Virus record (IMG/VR): IMGVR_UViG_3300035051_000028
Length of the DNA stretch: 35,489 nt
Direction: 5' to 3' (one strand)
Source: a virus
In this document: piece after piece, positions 1 to 35,489 of the stretch
How positions within the stretch are numbered: position 1 is the first letter of the stretch
How the letters are laid out: each line of letters begins with the position of its first letter
The notes under the pieces: generated by a model
The model's database searches: none
Told to the model about the DNA's origin: nothing
The model's input: only the letters and a program-made list of their open reading frames with translations
Program-made: the position numbers and the translations under genes

Positions 1-127
1 AACCTTTTGCCATGTCGTGAAAATCTTCGCCAGCAGCAAAGTCTACCTCAACACTCTCGAGGTCTGTATATAAGCGATAATCTTCTGCAAATGTAGCAGT
101 ATCTGAGATTAAAGCAACTGTTCTGTT
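1..127. repeat. Terminal direct repeat, copy 1 (identical to 35363..35489). This is a circular-contig overlap or a terminal redundancy.
   Basis: Base-by-base comparison shows 127/127 identity. A reading frame continues across the joined ends. Confidence 0.95.
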
Positions 128-4536: not shown

Positions 4537-4615
4537 GATATTCCTTAGAAATTTATACGCTATTTTAGAATAATCAATGGTTTTAGTAAAAATTGTATAA
4601 AAATATAAATTTTTA

Positions 4616-4624
4616 TGTTATAAT
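4616..4624 (+). promoter_or_regulatory. Extended -10 promoter TGtTATAAT for the plus-strand two-gene cassette
   Basis: Exact TGnTATAAT lies 27 nt upstream of the ATG at 4651. An AAGGA Shine-Dalgarno sequence lies between them. Confidence 0.55.
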
Positions 4625-4650
4625 TTCTAATATTTGCATAAAGGATAATA

Positions 4651-4809
4651 ATGAGTAAACCTGTATATATAAGCCAGAATGTTTTTAAAAAACTTGAATA
4701 CGAAAAAGTAAAAGACGGCAGAACATTAAAAGCCATTGTTGATAGTGCTTTGTTGATGTATATTGATTTTAAAAACAGTGAAAGATTACTAAACAAAGGA
4801 CAAAAATGA
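4651..4809 (+). CDS. Ribbon-helix-helix (CopG/Arc-like) small DNA-binding protein
   Basis: 52-aa ORF absent from the ORF track. It shows a beta-strand (KPVYIS) followed by two helices. Its stop overlaps the next start (ATGA). Confidence 0.55.
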   Translation: MSKPVYISQNVFKKLEYEKVKDGRTLKAIVDSALLMYIDFKNSERLLNKGQK

Positions 4810-5024
4810 AAACAGTAAAACAAGAGCTTATGTTTTGTAAAGAGTGCGGTCGTGCTACATTGCACTATAAAAACGGTAAAAAAATAAATTGGTTGCTTCA
4901 TATCTTCTTGATGATAGTCACGGCTGGTTTGTGGGTTATTCCTTTTGTTATAATTCTTATTTTAGGTATGAATGTTTGGGATAGTGAGAAGTGGACTTGC
5001 TCGGTTTGTGGGAATGAAGGGTAG
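4806..5024 (+). CDS. Zinc-ribbon membrane protein (CxxC, hydrophobic hairpin, CxxC; LITAF-like topology)
   Basis: 72-aa ORF. CKEC lies near the N-terminus and CSVC near the C-terminus. They flank roughly 30 hydrophobic residues (INWLLHIFLMIVTAGLWVIPFVIILILGM). Confidence 0.6.
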   Translation: MKTVKQELMFCKECGRATLHYKNGKKINWLLHIFLMIVTAGLWVIPFVIILILGMNVWDSEKWTCSVCGNEG

Positions 5025-5031
5025 CGTTTTG

Positions 5032-5715
5032 CTACTCTATAATGTTTTTTGTATGAGGTAAGTTGTTTTTGTCTATATAATCGTTATATGCTTTTGCAGC
5101 TTCTTTTTTTGTTTTGAATGTTCCAATGTGTTTAAACTTTTGAGACACTGTTATGTATGCTCTATAACGCCCTCTTGATAATCCGACGCCTCTATAACCA
5201 GATGTATTATCTCGATGCACCTGTCTTGTAGCAGAGCTATTTATCTGATGAGTTACAAAGTTTACATTTTTTGGCTCATAGTTCCCGTCGTTGTCTATCC
5301 TATTTATTTCTAACCCCGTCCTAAATATATCTTTTAAATCTGTATAGAAGTTTAAAAAGTTATTTTTCCATCTATCACAAACTTTTATCCCTCTTCCGCC
5401 ATAATTTTTAAACCCTATATCATCTTCATTGTAACATCTTTTAATCATGCTGTGGTATATTGGATATAATGGGTGCTTACTTAGCCCGTGAGTTTTTATC
5501 TTTTCTGCTCTGTCTGATATTGTTGAACATCCACAACTTTTTGTATCCCCAAATCTAACATTATCTAATTGTGTTTCAAATTCATTTCCGCATTTGCATT
5601 TAAATAAGCCAAATCTTCTTTTTCTTCCACTCATTATTTTACTATCTATTTCTTTGATAAAAAATATGCCATTTCCCATATCTTGATTATGAAATAATTT
5701 TACTCTTTTTGCCAT
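5032..5715 (-). CDS. AP2-domain DNA-binding protein (free-standing, homing-endonuclease-associated type)
   Basis: 227-aa ORF. The C-terminus SGYRGVGLSRGRYRAYITV...HIGTFKTKKEAAKAYNDY is an AP2/ERF-like fold. The N-terminus has a CKCG...SCGC cysteine motif. Confidence 0.65.
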   Translation of the reverse strand: MAKRVKLFHNQDMGNGIFFIKEIDSKIMSGRKRRFGLFKCKCGNEFETQLDNVRFGDTKSCGCSTISDRAEKIKTHGLSKHPLYPIYHSMIKRCYNEDDIGFKNYGGRGIKVCDRWKNNFLNFYTDLKDIFRTGLEINRIDNDGNYEPKNVNFVTHQINSSATRQVHRDNTSGYRGVGLSRGRYRAYITVSQKFKHIGTFKTKKEAAKAYNDYIDKNNLPHTKNIIE

Positions 5716-7985: not shown

Positions 7986-8075
7986 TGGAGGATAATATAG
8001 GATTTGAACCTATGGATGAAACTAATCATCAACGATTTAGCAAACCGTCACAATAAACCACTCTGTCAATTATCC
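7986..8075 (-). tRNA. tRNA-Ser (anticodon GCU), class II with a long variable arm and an encoded CCA
   Basis: Hand-folded cloverleaf. The acceptor stem GGATAAT/ATTATCC has 7 bp. The D stem is ACAG/TTGT. The anticodon stem ACGGT/ATCGT closes the loop TTGCTAA. The variable arm is GATGA-TTAGTT-TCATC. The T arm is ATAGG-TTCAAAT-CCTAT. The 3' end is T-CCA. Confidence 0.85.
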
Positions 8076-8304: not shown

Positions 8305-9519
8305 TTACCACCACTTGTCGGAGTTGTTTCGAGCATCTTCAAGGCTGTATCTTAGAGCATCTATCATATGGTTATATTTATCTAAAATTATTGATGTTAC
8401 TTGTCCACTTGCTTTATCAACTTTGTAACTATAATATTTAGCTTCGTGTATTGTATTTGAGCATCGTGAATGTATTATGATTTTATCGAAGCTTCTTAGG
8501 TATGATACACCATCTTCAACACTACCCTTTCCTTTTTGAGATGGTACAACATTGAAGCCATTCTTTACCATATGAGCGATTGTCTCAGGTCGTGCGTTAT
8601 CTGCTTTAACTTGATGTTGTCTAACGAGCGGAACGGTATCCCATAATGCAGGAAGTGCATCTATATCGCTGCTTGTTATTCTATTCTCTGAATTATAAGG
8701 GCGGTCGTTTGCTTCGTAGTCTATGTATAAGCAGTTATTTCCATAATCTTTATGAGGGGCTATAAAACATCTAGTTAATGTGTTCGGGTCGTTAGAGAAG
8801 CCCCAGTCAGCACCGAAATAAAAATGAACATTATCGGGTGTATTAAAATCTTCTATGCACCATTTATTGTTAAGCACCTGTTCATCTGTATTCTTTTTGA
8901 GCTGTCCTTCCCAAATATGCAAGTATTTGTCAGGGTCGTTTTTCATCATTCTATTTTTTTGGTCTTCTAGCTCTTTTGGAAAGTATTTATTATCTTGCCA
9001 GTTTACTTTTATGACTATTGCGTTATCAGGTGGGTTTTCTATGAATGTAGTGTAAATTATATCATGTTCATATCTTGGATTGAAACTAATCCATATTTCA
9101 CTATCAGGCTTTCTTATAGTCGGGTCTAGTATTTCCCAACTCATTGCAGATATACTCTCAGCCTCTTCTATCCAGCAGATATCTACACCCTCGAATGATT
9201 TAATTTTAGATAGGTTTGTATAAAGCCCTTTGAATAAAAACTCACTTCCATTAGCGTGTCGTATCACATCATTTTGAACTATGTAACCTTGTAATTCTAA
9301 TAAATCTATTTGGTCTTTAAGTAATTTGTGTACTGAGTCTTTTATAGAGTCTTGTATTTCACGGGTACAAAGTATCCTCATCGGTTTTTGCATTGCTTTT
9401 AGTAGAAGTATTCTTGCAATAGTCCATGACTTACTTGATCCACGACCGCCGTATGCTATTTTATATCTCGCTTGTTGTGTAGCAAATGGTTTTAGTTTTT
9501 TATTTAGAGTGACTTTCAT
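8305..9519 (-). CDS. terL: Terminase large subunit
   Basis: Walker A motif YGGRGSSKSW and a C-terminal nuclease-type domain. I place the start at ATG 9519 (ATGA overlap with the terS stop), not at the GTG at 9525 used by the track. Confidence 0.88.
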   Translation of the reverse strand: MKVTLNKKLKPFATQQARYKIAYGGRGSSKSWTIARILLLKAMQKPMRILCTREIQDSIKDSVHKLLKDQIDLLELQGYIVQNDVIRHANGSEFLFKGLYTNLSKIKSFEGVDICWIEEAESISAMSWEILDPTIRKPDSEIWISFNPRYEHDIIYTTFIENPPDNAIVIKVNWQDNKYFPKELEDQKNRMMKNDPDKYLHIWEGQLKKNTDEQVLNNKWCIEDFNTPDNVHFYFGADWGFSNDPNTLTRCFIAPHKDYGNNCLYIDYEANDRPYNSENRITSSDIDALPALWDTVPLVRQHQVKADNARPETIAHMVKNGFNVVPSQKGKGSVEDGVSYLRSFDKIIIHSRCSNTIHEAKYYSYKVDKASGQVTSIILDKYNHMIDALRYSLEDARNNSDKWW

Positions 9520-31915: not shown

Positions 31916-32233
31916 TTAATCAAACATCATTTTAAGCTGTTCTTCGGTGAATCCCATGTCCGATACATTACGACTTCGAACATTACTCAACTGCGATTTT
32001 ATTTTGTCTGTGTTTTGCTTTTTGGACTTTTTGTTGATCTGTTTATTCTTAAAAGCGACTAAAGCCTCTAACCTTTTGAAGTCAAAGTAGTTCATATCTA
32101 AGAACTCGCTATAAGAAATAATCCGTTCAGAGATAAGTACGCACCCCCTAAAATATAGAGGGGTCATTCCACTCTCTTTGAAGAACTCTATCGCTTCGCT
32201 ATTCTCTGTGGCTTTGTCGCTTGTGGCTTTCCC
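31916..32233 (-). CDS. -1 frame extension of the tail assembly chaperone (gpGT-like fusion; total 190 aa when joined to 32234..32487)
   Basis: The -1 frame is open from the slippery site to the TAA at 31916. The downstream ORF lacks its own Shine-Dalgarno context. The frame offset of 320 nt is 2 mod 3. Confidence 0.7.
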   Translation of the reverse strand, partial: GKATSDKATENSEAIEFFKESGMTPLYFRGCVLISERIISYSEFLDMNYFDFKRLEALVAFKNKQINKKSKKQNTDKIKSQLSNVRSRNVSDMGFTEEQLKMMFD

Positions 32234-32487
32234 CCTTGTGGTGCCTCAAAAACATAACTTAGAACATTAGGAAAGTCTTGCATAAGTTGAAACAAGAAAG
32301 GCTCGTCTTGCATATCTTTATAAACAAGTTTTGCGACCTCTTCGCCTCTGTCTTTGATGAGAGATACAAAAGCCTTTTTTAGAGCTTCGTTATCTTCGCC
32401 GTGTTCTACGATAATCGGGAAAACAATCGCTTCCAAGTCTTTAAGCTCTCTGTTTGTCATTTGGTTTTTTTCTTTGAGAATTAGCAT
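32188..32487 (-). CDS. Tail assembly chaperone (gpG-like, zero-frame product)
   Basis: 99-aa acidic ORF directly upstream of the tape measure gene, with an AAGGAT Shine-Dalgarno. Confidence 0.7.
   Translation of the reverse strand: MLILKEKNQMTNRELKDLEAIVFPIIVEHGEDNEALKKAFVSLIKDRGEEVAKLVYKDMQDEPFLFQLMQDFPNVLSYVFEAPQGGKPQATKPQRIAKR
32227..32233 (-). promoter_or_regulatory. -1 programmed ribosomal frameshift slippery heptamer G GGA AAG
   Basis: The reverse complement of ctttccc is GGGAAAG. GGA is codon 86 in the zero frame (32487 minus 32232 equals 255, which is 85 x 3). Confidence 0.75.
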
Positions 32488-32539
32488 TAATATCCTTTTT
32501 TCATATTATAGCGAAATTAAAAGAATTTATTAAATACTC

Positions 32540-32568
32540 TTGACATTGCACAATATTTGTGTTATAAT
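32540..32568 (+). promoter_or_regulatory. Perfect consensus sigma70-type promoter TTGACA-17 nt-TATAAT with extended TG
   Basis: Read directly: TTGACA (32540-45), a 17-nt spacer ending in TGT, and TATAAT (32563-68). Confidence 0.8.
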
Positions 32569-32599
32569 TATGTTATCTAAGAAACAAAAGGATGAAAAA

Positions 32600-32770
32600 A
32601 TGAATTTAACAATTGAAATAAACGGAACTTTTAAAAAAGTAGAAGCTTTAAATGAAAGAGGTACTACACTTCTTAACAACTTTATAGATGGTGTAGTAGA
32701 AGCGAAAGAGCTTGAAAACAATCAATACAAAAGCTATTTACAAATAACTAGTTTAGCAACTATTTTATAA
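32600..32770 (+). CDS. 56-aa hypothetical protein; first gene of the tail-module island
   Basis: ATG at 32600 with AAGGAT upstream. The track's longer TTG-started ORF would overlap the promoter. Confidence 0.5.
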   Translation: MNLTIEINGTFKKVEALNERGTTLLNNFIDGVVEAKELENNQYKSYLQITSLATIL

Positions 32771-32780
32771 GGTTGTTAAT

Positions 32781-33065
32781 ATGAGTTTTATTGATAATTT
32801 AGTAAAGATTGAACATATAAAAACAGGCATTGAAAAAGATTTTGGAATGTATGATTTATCTGAAATATTAGATAGCAATGTTGTGGATTATATATACAAT
32901 TTTATAACATCAGAGTTAAATACCGTAAGATGTACAAATTGTAAATACTTAAATAAAAATAGCGAAGATAATTCATGTAATAATGATGTGATGAAGACAT
33001 ACTATGGCATTTCATTTGATGTTGATGATTTCTTTTGTGAAAAATACAAAAGGGGAATTTTATGA
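32781..33065 (+). CDS. Four-Cys small protein (paralogue 1)
   Basis: CTNCKY...SCNN...FFCEKYK motif in a 94-aa ORF. Confidence 0.55.
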   Translation: MSFIDNLVKIEHIKTGIEKDFGMYDLSEILDSNVVDYIYNFITSELNTVRCTNCKYLNKNSEDNSCNNDVMKTYYGISFDVDDFFCEKYKRGIL

Positions 33066-33337
33066 AAATAGAGGATAGAATAAACTTTATAATGAGCATG
33101 GCAACATTTACAGATGATAAATATTATCTTGATGGTTTTAAAAGAGGACTAGAAGTTGCGTATAGAGATATCTATTTTAAGACTTGTGGGAATTGCAAAC
33201 ACTGCGTAGGTTATGAAAAAATGAATTTTTTTGAATGTAATTTATTAAGTTTTGAAAACAACATGGGAAGACTTGAATACATAGAAGTAAAAGAAGATTT
33301 TGGGTGTTTCAAATGGGAAGCAAAGGATAAAGAATGA
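33062..33337 (+). CDS. Four-Cys small protein (paralogue 2)
   Basis: CGNCKH...ECNL...FGCFKWE motif in a 91-aa ORF with an ATGA overlap. Confidence 0.55.
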   Translation: MKIEDRINFIMSMATFTDDKYYLDGFKRGLEVAYRDIYFKTCGNCKHCVGYEKMNFFECNLLSFENNMGRLEYIEVKEDFGCFKWEAKDKE

Positions 33338-33705
33338 ATATTATCTTAAATAAAGAGTTATTGAGTGAGGTTCTAAATATAGAAAATGAAAGAATTTCTA
33401 AAAAAGTAGATAGGTTTTGTTTTCTACCAACAAGCAACATTATTGCAGTAGGGTACTATATGGAAGATGGATGGCAACATCTTAATATTCACGAATTAGT
33501 ATATAACTGTAAAGAGTGGGCATTCGATAAAGATATTGTTTTATCAACAGAAAAATCAAGGCTTACGGGTCTTTGGTATTGTAACTTATTTTTACCTGAT
33601 AATAATACTTTATACCCATCAATTAGTAACGATTTTGATAGCGAAACAGAACCTGAAGCAGTATTTGCAGCGTGTCTACGGATGCTTAAACATGAAACCA
33701 ACTAA
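33334..33705 (+). CDS. Hypothetical protein
   Basis: 123-aa ORF with an ATGA overlap. Confidence 0.55.
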   Translation: MNIILNKELLSEVLNIENERISKKVDRFCFLPTSNIIAVGYYMEDGWQHLNIHELVYNCKEWAFDKDIVLSTEKSRLTGLWYCNLFLPDNNTLYPSISNDFDSETEPEAVFAACLRMLKHETN

Positions 33706-34069
33706 TCAAAACTTAGCCACTTTTTACGGTGTGCATAAAAACACTATTGACAACTACAGAAATGGCGATGAGTTTAAAAGAAGATTATATGAGGCGATGA
33801 AGAGATATTTTATAGAAAATGACCCTGATACTGATATTAATTTATTTGCATCTATAAGAAATAAAGATTTTATTTTTAATTGTGATGAATACAAAAATGG
33901 AGAACATGTAATAAAAGTTAAAAGAGGAAGTCCCGTATACAGAAGAGATAGTGGATGTTCTCTAGTTCATTATCTTGATGAAAATGGGGATAGAGTGCCA
34001 TATTCTGACATTAGCTTTTTAAAGCTATATAGGAGTGGTTTAATTGTAGAAGTCACCCCCGAAGAGTGA
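33689..34069 (+). CDS. HTH-containing protein
   Basis: The start is placed at MKPTNQNLATFYGVHKNTIDNYRNG (HTH pattern). The longer track ORF would overlap the previous gene by 170 nt. Confidence 0.5.
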   Translation, partial: NMKPTNQNLATFYGVHKNTIDNYRNGDEFKRRLYEAMKRYFIENDPDTDINLFASIRNKDFIFNCDEYKNGEHVIKVKRGSPVYRRDSGCSLVHYLDENGDRVPYSDISFLKLYRSGLIVEVTPEE

Positions 34070-34072
34070 CTT

Positions 34073-34483
34073 TTATATAGCAGCTTTAAAAATACTACCT
34101 TTGAAGCTGTAGCTTACATTTTCGATATCGCTTCCGCCTGTAGTGTCTGATAATGCTACTTGAGAACAAATAGCCGAAGCCATTCCAACTGTGTATCCGA
34201 TACCTTCGTCTCTTACAAGAAGAGGGTAAGGTGTTTTAGTTAATATCTGAGCATCTATTAGTGCAATTTCTGGCGCACCTTTTGGGATTGTAACTGTAAC
34301 AGTTGATACGATACTTCCTGCATCTTCAAGTACGTGTACTATGTCACGAACCGTTGAGAATGTATCTCCATTTTGCCCGATTTCGTATGCTACCGCTGCA
34401 TCTTTTGTTAAGTTAAAAGCAGATATAGCACCCCATACGAAACTTACTTGACCCTTGACTTGTGTAATTGTTTCACTTGCCAT
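34073..34483 (-). CDS. Tail tube protein
   Basis: 136-aa ORF immediately downstream of the sheath gene. Confidence 0.6.
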   Translation of the reverse strand: MASETITQVKGQVSFVWGAISAFNLTKDAAVAYEIGQNGDTFSTVRDIVHVLEDAGSIVSTVTVTIPKGAPEIALIDAQILTKTPYPLLVRDEGIGYTVGMASAICSQVALSDTTGGSDIENVSYSFKGSIFKAAI

Positions 34484-34493
34484 CTAAGCCTCC

Positions 34494-35489
34494 TTATAAA
34501 ATCTGAACACGGTTAGTGACAAAGTGTCCTGCTACCGCTTCATTATATGTGTAGTTACCCTCAATCTCACGGAGCAAATCACCTGCTTGGAAAGCTATTG
34601 TATAGTTTTCGTCTCCCGGCTGAATAATTCCTAAGTTTTGAGCTCTCTTAAATACTGGCTTAGTAGCATTTTCTAAAAGTGCGAAGCCTTGTGAGTCAAT
34701 CGTTACCTTTTTTTGTTGAAATAAATCATAACAAATAGCTGTAAGATTAACTTCCATCCAGATAGCACCGAGTGAAGTATCTATGAAGTTGCCAGTTTTG
34801 AGTGACATGCCCTCTTTAACAAAAGCTCTACCTGTTACTTCATTTGTGCCCGTGTAAACGTTGATGTTTTTATCCATCAAAAATGCAAGTTCTGCACCGC
34901 TTAGTGTTTCAGGTGTACTTAGTAAAGGTTTAGCAAACTTAGCAGTTCTAGAGCCGATGTTTTGACCCATCATTACACCCGCCATTTTTGCAGCGATTGG
35001 GTCGGTTGCATCACTAGAATAAATAAATGACATATTACCAACGATTGTAGAGTTATCTCCACTTAGTGAGTCATACACCGCTTTGTTAACGCTTGCTGCA
35101 TCTGTTGTAGCCGCTGTTTTTGCATCTGCTTCATTTGTCTCGAACATCATGTGATAAGCTTTGTTGTACTTAGCCGCTGCGAGAGTACCATCAATAACCT
35201 GAGCTGATGTTCTTATAGTTGTATCTGCAATAACAAAAGCCCATATTAGCGTAGAATCATTTTCGATTAAATCTAAAGTTCCCACTACATCTGGGTCAGT
35301 TCCTACTACATCACGAACTGGTACAGCATAAAGATAACCACTTCCGCCCGTCTCTTGAAAATAACCTTTTGCCATGTCGTGAAAATCTTCGCCAGCAGCA
35401 AAGTCTACCTCAACACTCTCGAGGTCTGTATATAAGCGATAATCTTCTGCAAATGTAGCAGTATCTGAGATTAAAGCAACTGTTCTGTT
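34494..35489 (-). CDS. Tail sheath protein, main body (the 5' end continues across the circular junction to the ATG at 196)
   Basis: The frame stays open upstream of the track's ATG (35375) to the window edge. Its position before the tube gene supports the call. The joined product is 354 aa. Confidence 0.65.
   Translation of the reverse strand, partial: NRTVALISDTATFAEDYRLYTDLESVEVDFAAGEDFHDMAKGYFQETGGSGYLYAVPVRDVVGTDPDVVGTLDLIENDSTLIWAFVIADTTIRTSAQVIDGTLAAAKYNKAYHMMFETNEADAKTAATTDAASVNKAVYDSLSGDNSTIVGNMSFIYSSDATDPIAAKMAGVMMGQNIGSRTAKFAKPLLSTPETLSGAELAFLMDKNINVYTGTNEVTGRAFVKEGMSLKTGNFIDTSLGAIWMEVNLTAICYDLFQQKKVTIDSQGFALLENATKPVFKRAQNLGIIQPGDENYTIAFQAGDLLREIEGNYTYNEAVAGHFVTNRVQIL
35363..35489. 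repeat. Terminal direct repeat, copy 2 (identical to 1..127)
   Basis: 127/127 identity. Confidence 0.95.

What the first reader, a model, noticed from the sequence alone, without database searches (positions are those of the whole stretch)
32488..34072. Opposite-strand five-gene island with a perfect consensus promoter, inserted between the tail tube and tail chaperone genes
In contractile-tail phages the order sheath, tube, chaperone (G/GT), tape measure is normally contiguous. Here 1.5 kb of plus-strand genes sits between the tube gene (34073..34483) and the chaperone gene (32188..32487).

The island starts with TTGACA, a 17-nt spacer and TGtTATAAT (32540-68). This is the best promoter match in the genome and needs no phage factor. 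That is what one expects for a moron expressed from a resident phage or very early in infection.

The five genes are translationally coupled (32600, 32781, 33062, 33334, 33689). None is recognisable as a structural or known defence gene. They encode two paralogous four-Cys proteins, an HTH protein and two unknown proteins.

The last gene stops 3 nt from the convergent tube stop, with no terminator. Late transcription must therefore either read 1.5 kb antisense through the island or restart at the weak TATAAT at 32505-10.

This placement and promoter are typical of phage accessory hotspots that carry superinfection-exclusion, defence or anti-defence cargo. The cargo here appears uncharacterised.
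Basis: partly seen in the sequence, partly recalled or inferred. Interest (0 to 1): 0.7.

Follow-up and report, generated by a model that had tools for sequence, protein, structure and literature searches.

The report
Swappable early-gene cassette inside tail operon
An uncultured phage carries, between its tail tube and tail chaperone genes, a backwards-facing, exchangeable five-gene cassette with its own perfect host promoter and a small DNA-binding regulator, built like known anti-defence (anti-CRISPR) operons but made of uncharacterised proteins.

Summary
A + strand operon (32600-34069) lies between the - strand tube gene (34073-34483) and chaperone gene (32188-32487). It is driven by the only 12/12 sigma-70 match in the circular 35.4-kb genome: TTGACA, 17 nt, TGtTATAAT at 32540-68.

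It is an insertion at a hotspot:
- Relatives with 63% and 46% sheath identity have tube and chaperone 17 and 10 nt apart.
- An 81% relative has three unrelated same-strand ORFs there.
- Two near-identical lineages keep the same ends but carry different cargo.

The island has the lowest GC of the genome (28% against 35%). g1 and g5 are under purifying selection.

New here: the island belongs to a recurring cassette type, seen in at least seven phage contigs. It consists of a consensus promoter with a conserved spacer, then 2-4 variable small genes, then a small "MKPT" HTH gene. One cassette sits backwards between terminase and portal; others lie in early regions. Two cargo families recur: a 4-Cys family (g2, g3) and a family with weak ABA-sandwich fold resemblance (g4).

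No integrase was found, so early lytic expression is favoured over a prophage moron. The closest analogue is an acr-aca operon. A unique palindrome in the promoter spacer is the candidate operator. Function is untested.

The parts
32488..32599 (.). Divergent control region between the chaperone ATG and the g1 ATG. It is 94% identical to the L020 counterpart, although the flanking genes have dS of 0.35-0.52.
32505..32533 (-). Promoter-like site (TTAATA, 17 nt, TATAAT; 10/12) facing the chaperone, tape measure and baseplate genes. It is a possible restart point for late tail transcription.
   Evidence: the TATAAT is conserved in L020
32540..32568 (+). Consensus sigma-70 promoter: TTGACA, 17 nt, TGtTATAAT. 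It is the only 12/12 site in the genome. It is homologous to the promoters that head MKPT-HTH cassettes in L020, L023, L024, L025, L027 and L030.
32549..32561 (.). Palindrome CACAA-TAT-TTGTG inside the promoter spacer. It is the candidate operator for the HTH protein. It occurs once in the window (0.02 expected by chance). In L020 the arms are 6 bp.
32569..32599 (+). Conserved leader with RBS (ACAAAAGGAT). The same leader type is seen in L020, L030, L027 and L006.
32600..32770 (+). g1, 56 aa, unknown function. A 79%-identical homolog is present in L014 (dN/dS 0.20). g1 is replaced by other genes in L020.
32781..33065 (+). g2, 94 aa. A distant member of the four-Cys family (CxNCK[YHW]...C...FxCxK[WY]).
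33062..33337 (+). g3, 91 aa, four-Cys family member. A word-indexed search of 5.8 billion proteins found only g3 itself. Family relatives were found in L023, L024 and L030.
33334..33705 (+). g4, 123 aa. It belongs to a family (P0004-P0008) that also occurs in the early small-ORF regions of unrelated phages. The model has an alpha/beta fold. Its best, non-significant fold match is 1r7l (Bacillus cereus phage protein).
33692..33818 (+). g5 N-terminal module: the 'MKPT' helix-turn-helix domain. Elsewhere it is mostly a stand-alone protein of 44-62 aa. It is the conserved 3' gene of the cassette.
33819..34043 (+). g5 C-terminal module of about 75 aa. It is an in-frame insertion relative to the 47-aa HTH of L020. 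It is related to the C-termini of P0016 and P0018. Its function is unknown.
34045..34078 (.). Stable hairpin spanning the g5 stop and the convergent tube stop. It is atypical as a terminator because no clean U tract follows the stem.
34073..34483 (-). Tail tube gene (flank). It is assigned by position after the sheath gene and by conservation in relatives.
32188..32487 (-). Tail chaperone-like gene (flank). It follows the tube gene directly in L010 and L008.

Best explanation
The region is a horizontally exchanged, self-contained accessory cassette. It is inserted backwards at a recombination hotspot between the tail tube and tail chaperone genes of a probably lytic, uncultured small myovirus.

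Proposed mechanism (inferred unless marked otherwise):
1. Host RNA polymerase alone fires the consensus promoter as soon as the DNA enters the cell.
2. This produces one tightly packed (overlapping or closely spaced) mRNA for four small cargo proteins (g1 to g4) and, last, the MKPT-HTH protein g5.
3. The cargo acts early, as anti-defence or host-takeover factors.
4. As g5 accumulates, it binds the palindrome CACAA-TAT-TTGTG in the promoter spacer and shuts the operon off.
5. This also stops head-on transcription into the tube and sheath genes before late tail expression. Downstream tail genes may restart at the - strand promoter-like site at 32505-33.

The overall architecture is that of an acr-aca operon.

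Shown by the data:
- the insertion and the hotspot;
- the conserved frame with swapped cargo;
- the promoter's uniqueness and its conservation across cassettes;
- purifying selection on g1 and g5;
- family membership of g2 to g5.

Inferred only:
- expression timing;
- DNA binding and autorepression by g5;
- anti-defence activity of the cargo.
For: Insertion and hotspot.
- The junction is empty in L010 (17 nt) and L008 (10 nt).
- L006 has unrelated cargo at the junction.
- L014 has a g1 homolog, a 58-aa gene and a g5 homolog.
- L020 has the same promoter and leader, then 100-aa and 70-aa genes, then a 47-aa HTH.
- Homology breakpoints fall at the leader/ATG, at the g1/g2 boundary, at the HTH ATG and after codon 42 of g5.
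- The island is the lowest-GC 1.6 kb of the genome (0.4th percentile).

Promoter.
- It is the only 12/12 site in the genome.
- The intergenic region is 94% conserved against L020, while flanking dS is 0.35-0.52.

Recurrent cassette.
- A 12/12 or 11/12 promoter with a conserved spacer lies 418-1152 nt upstream of an MKPT-HTH gene in the window, L020, L023, L024, L025, L027 and L030. The cargo between them is mostly unrelated from locus to locus.
- The L030 cassette is backwards between the terminase and portal genes.
- Of the 7 IMG/VR contigs that match the promoter pattern, 6 carry the HTH gene downstream.

Operator and regulator.
- The palindrome occurs once in the window against 0.02 expected.
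- The spacer type co-varies with the putative recognition region of the HTH: 'HKNTIDNY' goes with CACAA/TTGTG, and 'LTRQTIGTY' goes with GTTAA..GTAC.
- Several family members give weak matches to various Pfam HTH families.

Coding and early character.
- dN/dS is 0.20 for g1, 0.24 for g5 and 0.02 for the HTH module.
- g4 and four-Cys relatives lie in the early small-ORF regions of other phages.

Architecture of acr-aca operons: PMC13551039.
Against: - No experiment of any kind exists, and the host is unknown.
- No cargo protein matches a known anti-defence family. g5 matches no characterised Aca family or any Pfam family above threshold.
- The palindrome has only 5-bp arms. The spacers of the other cassettes are not clear inverted repeats.
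- Spacer conservation could reflect recent common descent, because the leaders are conserved too.
- The spacer/HTH co-variation rests on only two classes.
- In L023, L024 and L027 the HTH gene lies in the middle of long co-directional early gene arrays rather than at an operon end. That fits a general early regulator equally well.
- L029 has its consensus promoter 2.3 kb upstream. L022 and L045-L049 show no consensus promoter.
- The g5 structure model is unusable (pLDDT 38).
Confidence: 0.55

Rival explanations
1. It is an ordinary early regulatory or host-takeover gene block that has simply been relocated. On this view the MKPT-HTH is a developmental regulator of the phage, either Cro-like or a middle/late switch. 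It acts on other promoters and does not autoregulate. The cargo genes are generic early genes and have no role in countering defence.
For: - In L023, L024, L027 and L029 the HTH gene and the g4 and four-Cys relatives sit inside long co-directional early arrays, next to replication and recombination genes.
- The window's own early region lacks any copy of these families. The island may therefore supply them.
Against: - The palindrome occurs nowhere else in the genome. No second target site is visible.
- The cargo differs between near-identical phages. That is unexpected for core developmental genes.
- Relatives with an empty junction apparently do without the block, at least at this locus.
Confidence: 0.27
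2. It is a classical prophage moron. The cassette would be expressed from a repressed prophage and would benefit the lysogen through superinfection exclusion or anti-phage defence. HK97 gene 15, in the same part of the tail operon, is the model.
For: - The formal moron hallmarks are met. There is extra DNA that relatives lack, deviant GC and an own promoter.
- The first named moron lies between the chaperone and tape measure genes of HK97 (PMC3594210).
Against: - No integrase, recombinase or recognisable CI-type repressor was found in the genome.
- No prophage copies were found in 185,579 species genomes with sheath or HTH patterns. The one exception is a whole phage-sized contig binned into a MAG.
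- There is no PADLOC hit.
- None of the five proteins has a predicted membrane segment by eye.
- The pattern-based scans have limited sensitivity.
Confidence: 0.08
3. The main role is cis-acting transcriptional interference. On this view a very strong early promoter fires head-on into the tube and sheath genes and keeps tail genes silent until the HTH shuts it off. The encoded cargo would be secondary.
For: - The geometry is convergent, with only 3 nt between the stop codons and no canonical terminator.
- The L030 cassette is also backwards inside a late operon.
Against: - A stable hairpin sits exactly at the junction and may stop read-through.
- The same cassette type is co-directional in early regions of other phages.
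- The L006 island is on the tail strand.
- The cargo genes are under purifying selection.
Confidence: 0.07
4. The ORFs are chance open frames in AT-rich DNA, and the promoter is a chance match.
For: - The DNA is AT-rich and the ORFs are small.
- g3 has no homolog in a word-indexed search of 5.8 billion proteins.
Against: - dN/dS is 0.20-0.24 for g1 and g5.
- g2, g3, g4 and g5 are detected by HMMs built from proteins of independent phages.
- The genes are packed tightly, with ATGA overlaps.
- Rough arithmetic from base composition gives about 0.005 expected sites of 12/12 plus TG in the genome. The real site is conserved in L020 and homologous to that of L030.
Confidence: 0.01

Closest known systems
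acr-aca (anti-CRISPR / anti-CRISPR-associated) operons of phages and other mobile elements
   Same: - A strong promoter fires at entry.
- One to several small, highly variable ORFs follow the promoter.
- A conserved small HTH gene lies at the 3' end of the operon.
- A symmetric sequence lies within the promoter.
- Cargo is exchanged between close relatives while the regulator is kept.
- Such operons are often embedded among structural genes.
- Repression is needed because unregulated expression harms the phage (PMC13551039).
   Different: - The HTH belongs to an undescribed 'MKPT' family of about 45 aa. It has no significant match to any curated family, and no library of Aca1-14 sequences was available to compare against.
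- No cargo protein matches a known Acr.
- The operator has only 5-6 bp arms and is untested.
- The orientation is convergent with the late operon.
- In some phages the HTH gene lies in mid-array rather than at the operon end.
Morons of lambdoid and other temperate phages (for example HK97 gene 15, which lies between the tail chaperone and the tape measure genes)
   Same: - It is extra DNA relative to close relatives.
- It has an own promoter.
- Its GC content deviates from the genome.
- It lies in the same neighbourhood of the tail operon.
- It spreads by horizontal exchange (PMC3594210).
   Different: - This is a five-gene operon rather than a single gene.
- It is on the opposite strand.
- It has no clean terminator.
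- There is no evidence that the phage is temperate.
- It carries its own regulator and has a conserved frame.
Hotspots of antiviral systems in P2-like phages and P4-like satellites (PMC9122126)
   Same: It is a fixed genomic junction flanked by conserved phage genes, and closely related phages carry different cargo there.
   Different: The P2 and P4 hotspots hold large defence systems in prophages. Here the cargo is small early-type genes, with no PADLOC hit, in an apparently lytic phage.
PDB 1r7l, a phage protein from Bacillus cereus ATCC 14579. From memory, not checked here: this structure defines the 'phage ABA sandwich' fold.
   Same: It is the best structural match to the g4 model, which has the element order helix, two strands, helix, two strands, helix (Foldseek probability 0.91).
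   Different: - The E-value is 0.06 and the TM-score 0.41-0.47.
- The g4 model is only moderate (pLDDT 68).
- Pfam gives no hit.
- The function of 1r7l is itself unknown.

Membership tests
Moron | Extra DNA that is absent from otherwise syntenic relatives | tested here: met
   Tube and chaperone genes are adjacent in L010 (17 nt apart) and L008 (10 nt apart).
Moron | Base composition differs from the surrounding genes | tested here: met
   The island is 28.3% GC, against a genome mean of 35.4% and about 40% in the flanking tail genes. It is the lowest 1.6-kb window of the genome.
Moron | Own promoter | tested here: met
   It has the only 12/12 sigma-70 site in the genome, with TG upstream of the -10, 31 nt before the g1 ATG. 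This is sequence-level evidence only.
Moron | Own terminator | tested here: inconclusive
   The scan finds no canonical terminator. A stable hairpin lies at 34045-34078 but lacks a clean U tract.
Moron | Carried by a temperate phage and expressed from the repressed prophage | tested here: not met
   No integrase or recombinase is found in any ORF of 150 aa or more. No prophage relatives are found in genome contigs. Expression itself cannot be tested here.
acr-aca operon | Strong promoter directly upstream of small ORFs that are co-transcribed with a downstream HTH gene | tested here: met
   Consensus promoter, five tightly packed genes (overlapping or closely spaced), and the HTH gene last. 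The same order is seen in six other loci.
acr-aca operon | Variable cargo upstream of a conserved regulator among related elements | tested here: met
   The window, L014 and L020 share the promoter and/or the HTH gene but carry different cargo. Across seven loci the cargo proteins are mostly unrelated to one another.
acr-aca operon | Inverted-repeat operator in or near the promoter that is bound by the Aca protein | tested here: inconclusive
   The palindrome CACAA-N3-TTGTG lies in the promoter spacer and is unique in the genome (0.02 expected). It is conserved in L020. Binding is not testable here, and the spacers of the other cassettes are not clear palindromes.
acr-aca operon | The regulator belongs to a described Aca family (Aca1-Aca14) | not tested
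   No library of Aca sequences was available. Pfam gives only sub-threshold HTH matches (best HTH_17, E = 0.0075). The PDB sequence search gives nothing below E = 0.5.
acr-aca operon | The cargo inhibits CRISPR-Cas or another defence system | not testable with these tools
   No cargo protein has a hit in Pfam, PHROGs, PADLOC or NCBIfam.
Tail structural or assembly genes | Conserved presence and position in related tails, with structural family hits | tested here: not met
   The five genes are absent from L006, L008 and L010. No structural family hit was obtained.
Known anti-phage defence systems (PADLOC) | Match to a defence protein model | tested here: not met
   None of the five proteins matched any family at E <= 1.
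1r7l-like phage protein fold (g4) | Significant sequence or fold match to 1r7l | tested here: inconclusive
   Pfam gives no hit. A PDB search with a profile of the g4 family gives none. Foldseek gives E = 0.06, probability 0.91 and TM-score 0.41-0.47, on a model with pLDDT 68.

The most novel reading that the evidence does not exclude
The 'MKPT' mini-HTH would be a new Aca-like regulator family. It would mark a portable anti-defence cassette that uncultured AT-rich phages shuttle between early regions and junctions of late operons: consensus promoter with built-in operator, then swappable small inhibitors, then the repressor. The four-Cys family, the g4 family and the singleton cargo proteins would then be new inhibitors of bacterial immunity. 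The HTH gene could serve as a guilt-by-association marker to mine more of them.
Probability: 0.3. Interest if true: 0.72.

Novelty: new variant of a known kind. Interest (0 to 1): 0.55.

Why it matters
If the model holds, the locus offers three things:
- a new marker gene (the MKPT-HTH) for finding anti-defence or host-takeover genes in phages that have no cultured relatives;
- a compact, portable expression module consisting of a perfect promoter, a candidate operator and a regulator of about 45 aa;
- a clear natural example of how a strong early operon can be tolerated head-on inside a late tail operon.

Even without a known function, the comparison shows that the tube/chaperone junction is a recombination hotspot in this lineage. 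Five states are observed: empty, three cargo sets on the conserved promoter-HTH frame, and one unrelated same-strand set. The breakpoints fall exactly at gene boundaries.

Tried and rejected
- **DNA and protein searches of deposited phages.** The locus (blastn) and the sheath protein (tblastn) found nothing in 50,697 phage records. The lineage has no deposited relative, so no annotated synteny was available.
- **Curated family libraries.** Pfam, PHROGs, PADLOC and NCBIfam gave no usable hit for g1-g5. Pfam and PHROGs also gave none for the alternative cargo proteins.
- **Word-indexed homology search.** g3 returned only itself. g5 returned one protein.
- **Structure of g5.** The model from a 2-sequence alignment had pLDDT 38 and was not used for fold search.
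- **Structure of g4.** The model had pLDDT 68. The PDB and BFVD fold searches gave no hit with E <= 0.001. The best match was 1r7l, and the viral hits were all uncharacterised.
- **PDB searches with family profiles.** The g4, HTH, four-Cys and g5 C-terminal families gave nothing significant.
- **Host or prophage search in 185,579 species genomes.** Sheath patterns found none. HTH patterns found one phage-sized contig binned as a Balneolaceae MAG, which is not a reliable host call.
- **Generalising the promoter-HTH link.** The contigs holding more HTH family members (L045-L049, L022, L026) were too short or showed no consensus promoter.
- **Direct g2/g3 paralogy by BLASTP.** This was rejected as not significant. 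It was replaced by the family-HMM test.
- **Leader RNA structure at 32569-32610.** It is no better than shuffled sequence.
- **The L006 island.** It has no strong sigma-70 promoter, so it is a different kind of insert at the same junction.
- **L037.** It matches the promoter pattern but is a high-GC, unrelated phage without the HTH gene.
Full report
**What the window is**

The window has a 127-nt terminal direct overlap, so it is a circularly assembled genome of 35,362 unique bases with 35.5% GC.

Family hits identify the following genes:
- terminase, portal, a Mu-F-like protein, major capsid, tail terminator, sheath, tape measure, Dit, sheath initiator and baseplate genes on the - strand;
- a replication and recombination block with Erf, YqaJ, SSB, a replication initiator, a helicase, a primase, a methylase and RusA.

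Several Pfam families that hit the neighbouring genes are named after the myophages E217, Pam3 and XM1.

Neither the locus DNA nor the sheath protein matches any of 50,697 deposited phage records. The lineage therefore has no deposited relative.

No integrase or recombinase was found in any ORF of 150 aa or more.

**Check of the observation**

The promoter is exactly as described: TTGACA at 32540-45, a 17-nt spacer, TG at 32560-61 and TATAAT at 32563-68.
- It is the only 12/12 site on either strand of the genome.
- Apart from one 11/12 site with a poor -10 at the window edge, all other sites score 10/12 or less.

The five + strand genes are tightly packed:
- g1 32600-32770;
- g2 32781-33065;
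- g3 33062-33337;
- g4 33334-33705;
- g5 33692-34069.

Three corrections apply.
- g5 starts at 33692, not 33689.
- The pipeline's 66-aa call for g1 starts 2 nt after the -10, and in L020 that frame is closed by a stop codon. The 56-aa form, which has the RBS AAGGA, is preferred.
- The g5 and tube stop codons are indeed 3 nt apart, and no canonical terminator is found. A hairpin at 34045-34078 nevertheless spans the junction and is unusually stable (-16.2 kcal/mol, z = -3.3).

The identical island is present on 7-9 contigs from six samples.

**It is an insertion at a hotspot**

Five states of the tube/chaperone junction were recovered.

| Locus | Relation to the window | Content of the junction |
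|---|---|---|
| L010 | sheath 63% identical | tube and chaperone 17 nt apart |
| L008 | sheath 46% identical | tube and chaperone 10 nt apart |
| L006 | sheath 81% identical | three unrelated ORFs on the tail strand (105 aa; 47 aa, a weak HTH-family member; 81 aa). A hairpin follows the tube gene and there is no strong promoter |
| L014 | tube 94% identical | opposite-strand island with a g1 homolog, a 58-aa gene in place of g2-g4, and a g5 homolog (78% identical) |
| L020/L021 | tube 94% identical | same promoter, palindrome and leader, then 100-aa and 70-aa genes, then a stand-alone 47-aa HTH almost identical to the first 42 residues of g5 |

Homology between these variants breaks exactly at four points: after the g1 ATG, at the g1/g2 boundary, at the HTH ATG, and after g5 codon 42. 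The last 26 nt of g5 and the hairpin are shared again. The C-terminal domain of about 75 aa in g5 is therefore an in-frame module.

The island is the lowest-GC 1.6-kb stretch of the genome: 28.3% against a mean of 35.4% (sd 2.7%), while the flanking tail genes are about 40% GC.

**The genes are real**

- Between the window and L014, dN/dS is 0.20 for g1 and 0.24 for g5, with dS of about 0.66-0.69.
- Between the window and L020, dN/dS of the HTH module is 0.02.
- The 115-nt control region is 94% identical to that of L020, although synonymous sites in the flanking genes have diverged (dS 0.35-0.52). This suggests constraint on the regulatory DNA.

**What the proteins are**

No curated library recognises any of the five proteins.

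*g5.* An exhaustive HMMER search of 1.84 billion representative proteins found 41 relatives. g5 has two modules:
- an N-terminal 'MKPT' helix-turn-helix of about 45 aa, which mostly occurs as a stand-alone protein of 44-62 aa;
- a C-terminal domain shared with two other proteins.

Several members of the HTH family give weak matches to various Pfam HTH families, most often HTH_17.

*g4.* It belongs to a family (P0004-P0008) that occurs in the early small-ORF regions of unrelated phages, next to YqaJ, helicase or ERF/SSB/NinG genes. Its model (pLDDT 68) has an alpha/beta fold. The best, non-significant match is the Bacillus cereus phage protein 1r7l.

*g2 and g3.* Both match an HMM built only from four-Cys proteins of other phages. 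The motif is CxNCK[YHW]...C...FxCxK[WY].

*g1.* It has only the L014 homolog.

**A recurring cassette**

Searching IMG/VR with the HTH family returned eight loci.

In L023, L024, L025, L027/L028 and L030, as in the window and L020:
- A 12/12 promoter (11/12 in L024) lies 418-1152 nt upstream of the HTH gene.
- Its spacer is conserved: ttgttaaatatttgtac and close variants, against ttgCACAAtatTTGTGt in the window.
- A similar leader ending in ACAAAAGGAT follows in most of them.
- The 2-4 small genes between promoter and HTH gene are mostly unrelated from locus to locus.

The window's promoter region aligns to that of L030 at 72.5% identity (E = 1.7e-6).

In L030 the cassette holds a 59-aa gene, a g4-family gene, a four-Cys gene, the HTH gene and a 73-aa gene. 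It is inserted backwards between the terminase large subunit and the portal gene.

In L022 an HTH gene converges on the gene that follows a tail terminator. That gene is probably the major tail protein, but this is inferred from position only.

In L023, L024, L027 and L029 the unit is co-directional within early regions.

A scan of 2.9 million viral contigs with the promoter pattern found seven contigs. Six of them carry the HTH gene downstream, and the seventh is an unrelated high-GC phage. This test is partly circular, because the pattern was derived from those six contigs.

**How it most likely works**

The architecture is that of acr-aca operons, in which:
- rapid early expression comes from a strong promoter;
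- the cargo is variable and made of small genes;
- a conserved HTH repressor, encoded last, binds the promoter because unregulated expression is harmful (PMC13551039).

The candidate operator here is the palindrome CACAA-TAT-TTGTG in the promoter spacer.
- It occurs once in the genome against 0.02 expected.
- In L020 it has 6-bp arms.
- The spacer type co-varies with the putative recognition region of the HTH, but this rests on only two classes.

Repression would be especially useful here, because the promoter fires head-on into the tube and sheath genes. The junction hairpin may help to stop read-through. The - strand site at 32505-33 (10/12) may restart transcription of the chaperone, tape measure and baseplate genes.

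All steps beyond the anatomy are inferred.

**Rivals**

- **General early regulator block that was relocated.** This is the main alternative, because in several phages the HTH gene lies in mid-array.
- **Prophage moron.** The formal hallmarks fit (PMC3594210). There is, however, no sign of lysogeny and no defence hit.
- **Pure antisense control.** This is weakened by the hairpin, by purifying selection on the cargo, and by the co-directional copies elsewhere.
- **Chance.** This is excluded.

**Novelty and verdict**

The concept of morons, hotspots and acr-aca-like operons is known. What is not described:
- the HTH family;
- the conserved promoter-cargo-HTH frame;
- its placement backwards in two different late-operon junctions;
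- the cargo families.

Function and host remain unknown.

Noticed in passing
window 4537-5031 (+ strand); L001 16569-17343: A second backwards mini-operon lies inside the head module, between the 372-aa scaffold/protease-like gene and a 227-aa gene.
- It has the same extended -10 nonamer, TGTTATAAT.
- It encodes a 52-aa protein that looks like a ribbon-helix-helix by eye (no family hit).
- It also encodes a 72-aa protein with two CxxC motifs and a hydrophobic helix (LITAF-like zinc ribbon, E = 4e-4).
- A terminator-like hairpin lies at 5018-5038.
- The otherwise near-identical contig L001 has 280 nt more here, including an extra 93-aa HTH_17 gene (E = 1.5e-6).

This island is therefore polymorphic too.
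   Followed up: partly
window 5032-5715 (- strand): A 227-aa protein in the head module has Cys-rich N-terminal motifs and a weak AP2-domain match (E = 0.005). It may be a homing-endonuclease-like insert next to the second island.
   Followed up: partly
window 1-127 and 35363-35489; sheath gene 34494-35489 continuing at 128-196: The first and last 127 nt of the window are identical, which indicates a circular assembly. The sheath gene therefore runs across the window ends. It is 354 aa, as in L001. The 293-aa ORF (34494-35375) in the ORF list is only the part from an internal ATG.
   Followed up: yes
window 7986-8075 (- strand): A tRNA-Ser (anticodon GCT) gene lies between the portal and terminase genes.
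   Followed up: no
window 31916-32167 (- strand): An 83-aa ORF lies between the chaperone-like gene and the tape measure gene. Its N-terminus (MTPL[YF]FRG...) is highly conserved in relatives with sheath identity as low as 46%. It starts 20 nt after the 99-aa gene. Whether the two form a G/GT-type frameshift pair was not examined.
   Followed up: no
L006 9304-10229: The relative with 81% sheath identity fills the same junction with three unrelated ORFs on the tail strand. A hairpin follows the tube gene (9310-9325). Just before the chaperone gene there is a TTGACA ... TGTGTTATAAT pair spaced 25 nt apart. The pair resembles the window's promoter elements but faces the other way and has non-functional spacing.
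   Followed up: partly
L029 3488, 3693 and 10216; L006 2155: Related phage contigs carry several perfect 12/12 sigma-70 promoters, whereas the window has only one. The window's main early region (about 16.2-16.7 kb) has only 9-10/12 sites.
   Followed up: no
L050 (JBBAEC010000027.1, 39,953 nt): The only genome-contig hit for the HTH family is a whole contig binned into a Balneolaceae MAG. It has the same length as the IMG/VR contig of L028. It is probably a phage contig rather than a prophage, so it is not a trustworthy host assignment.
   Followed up: no
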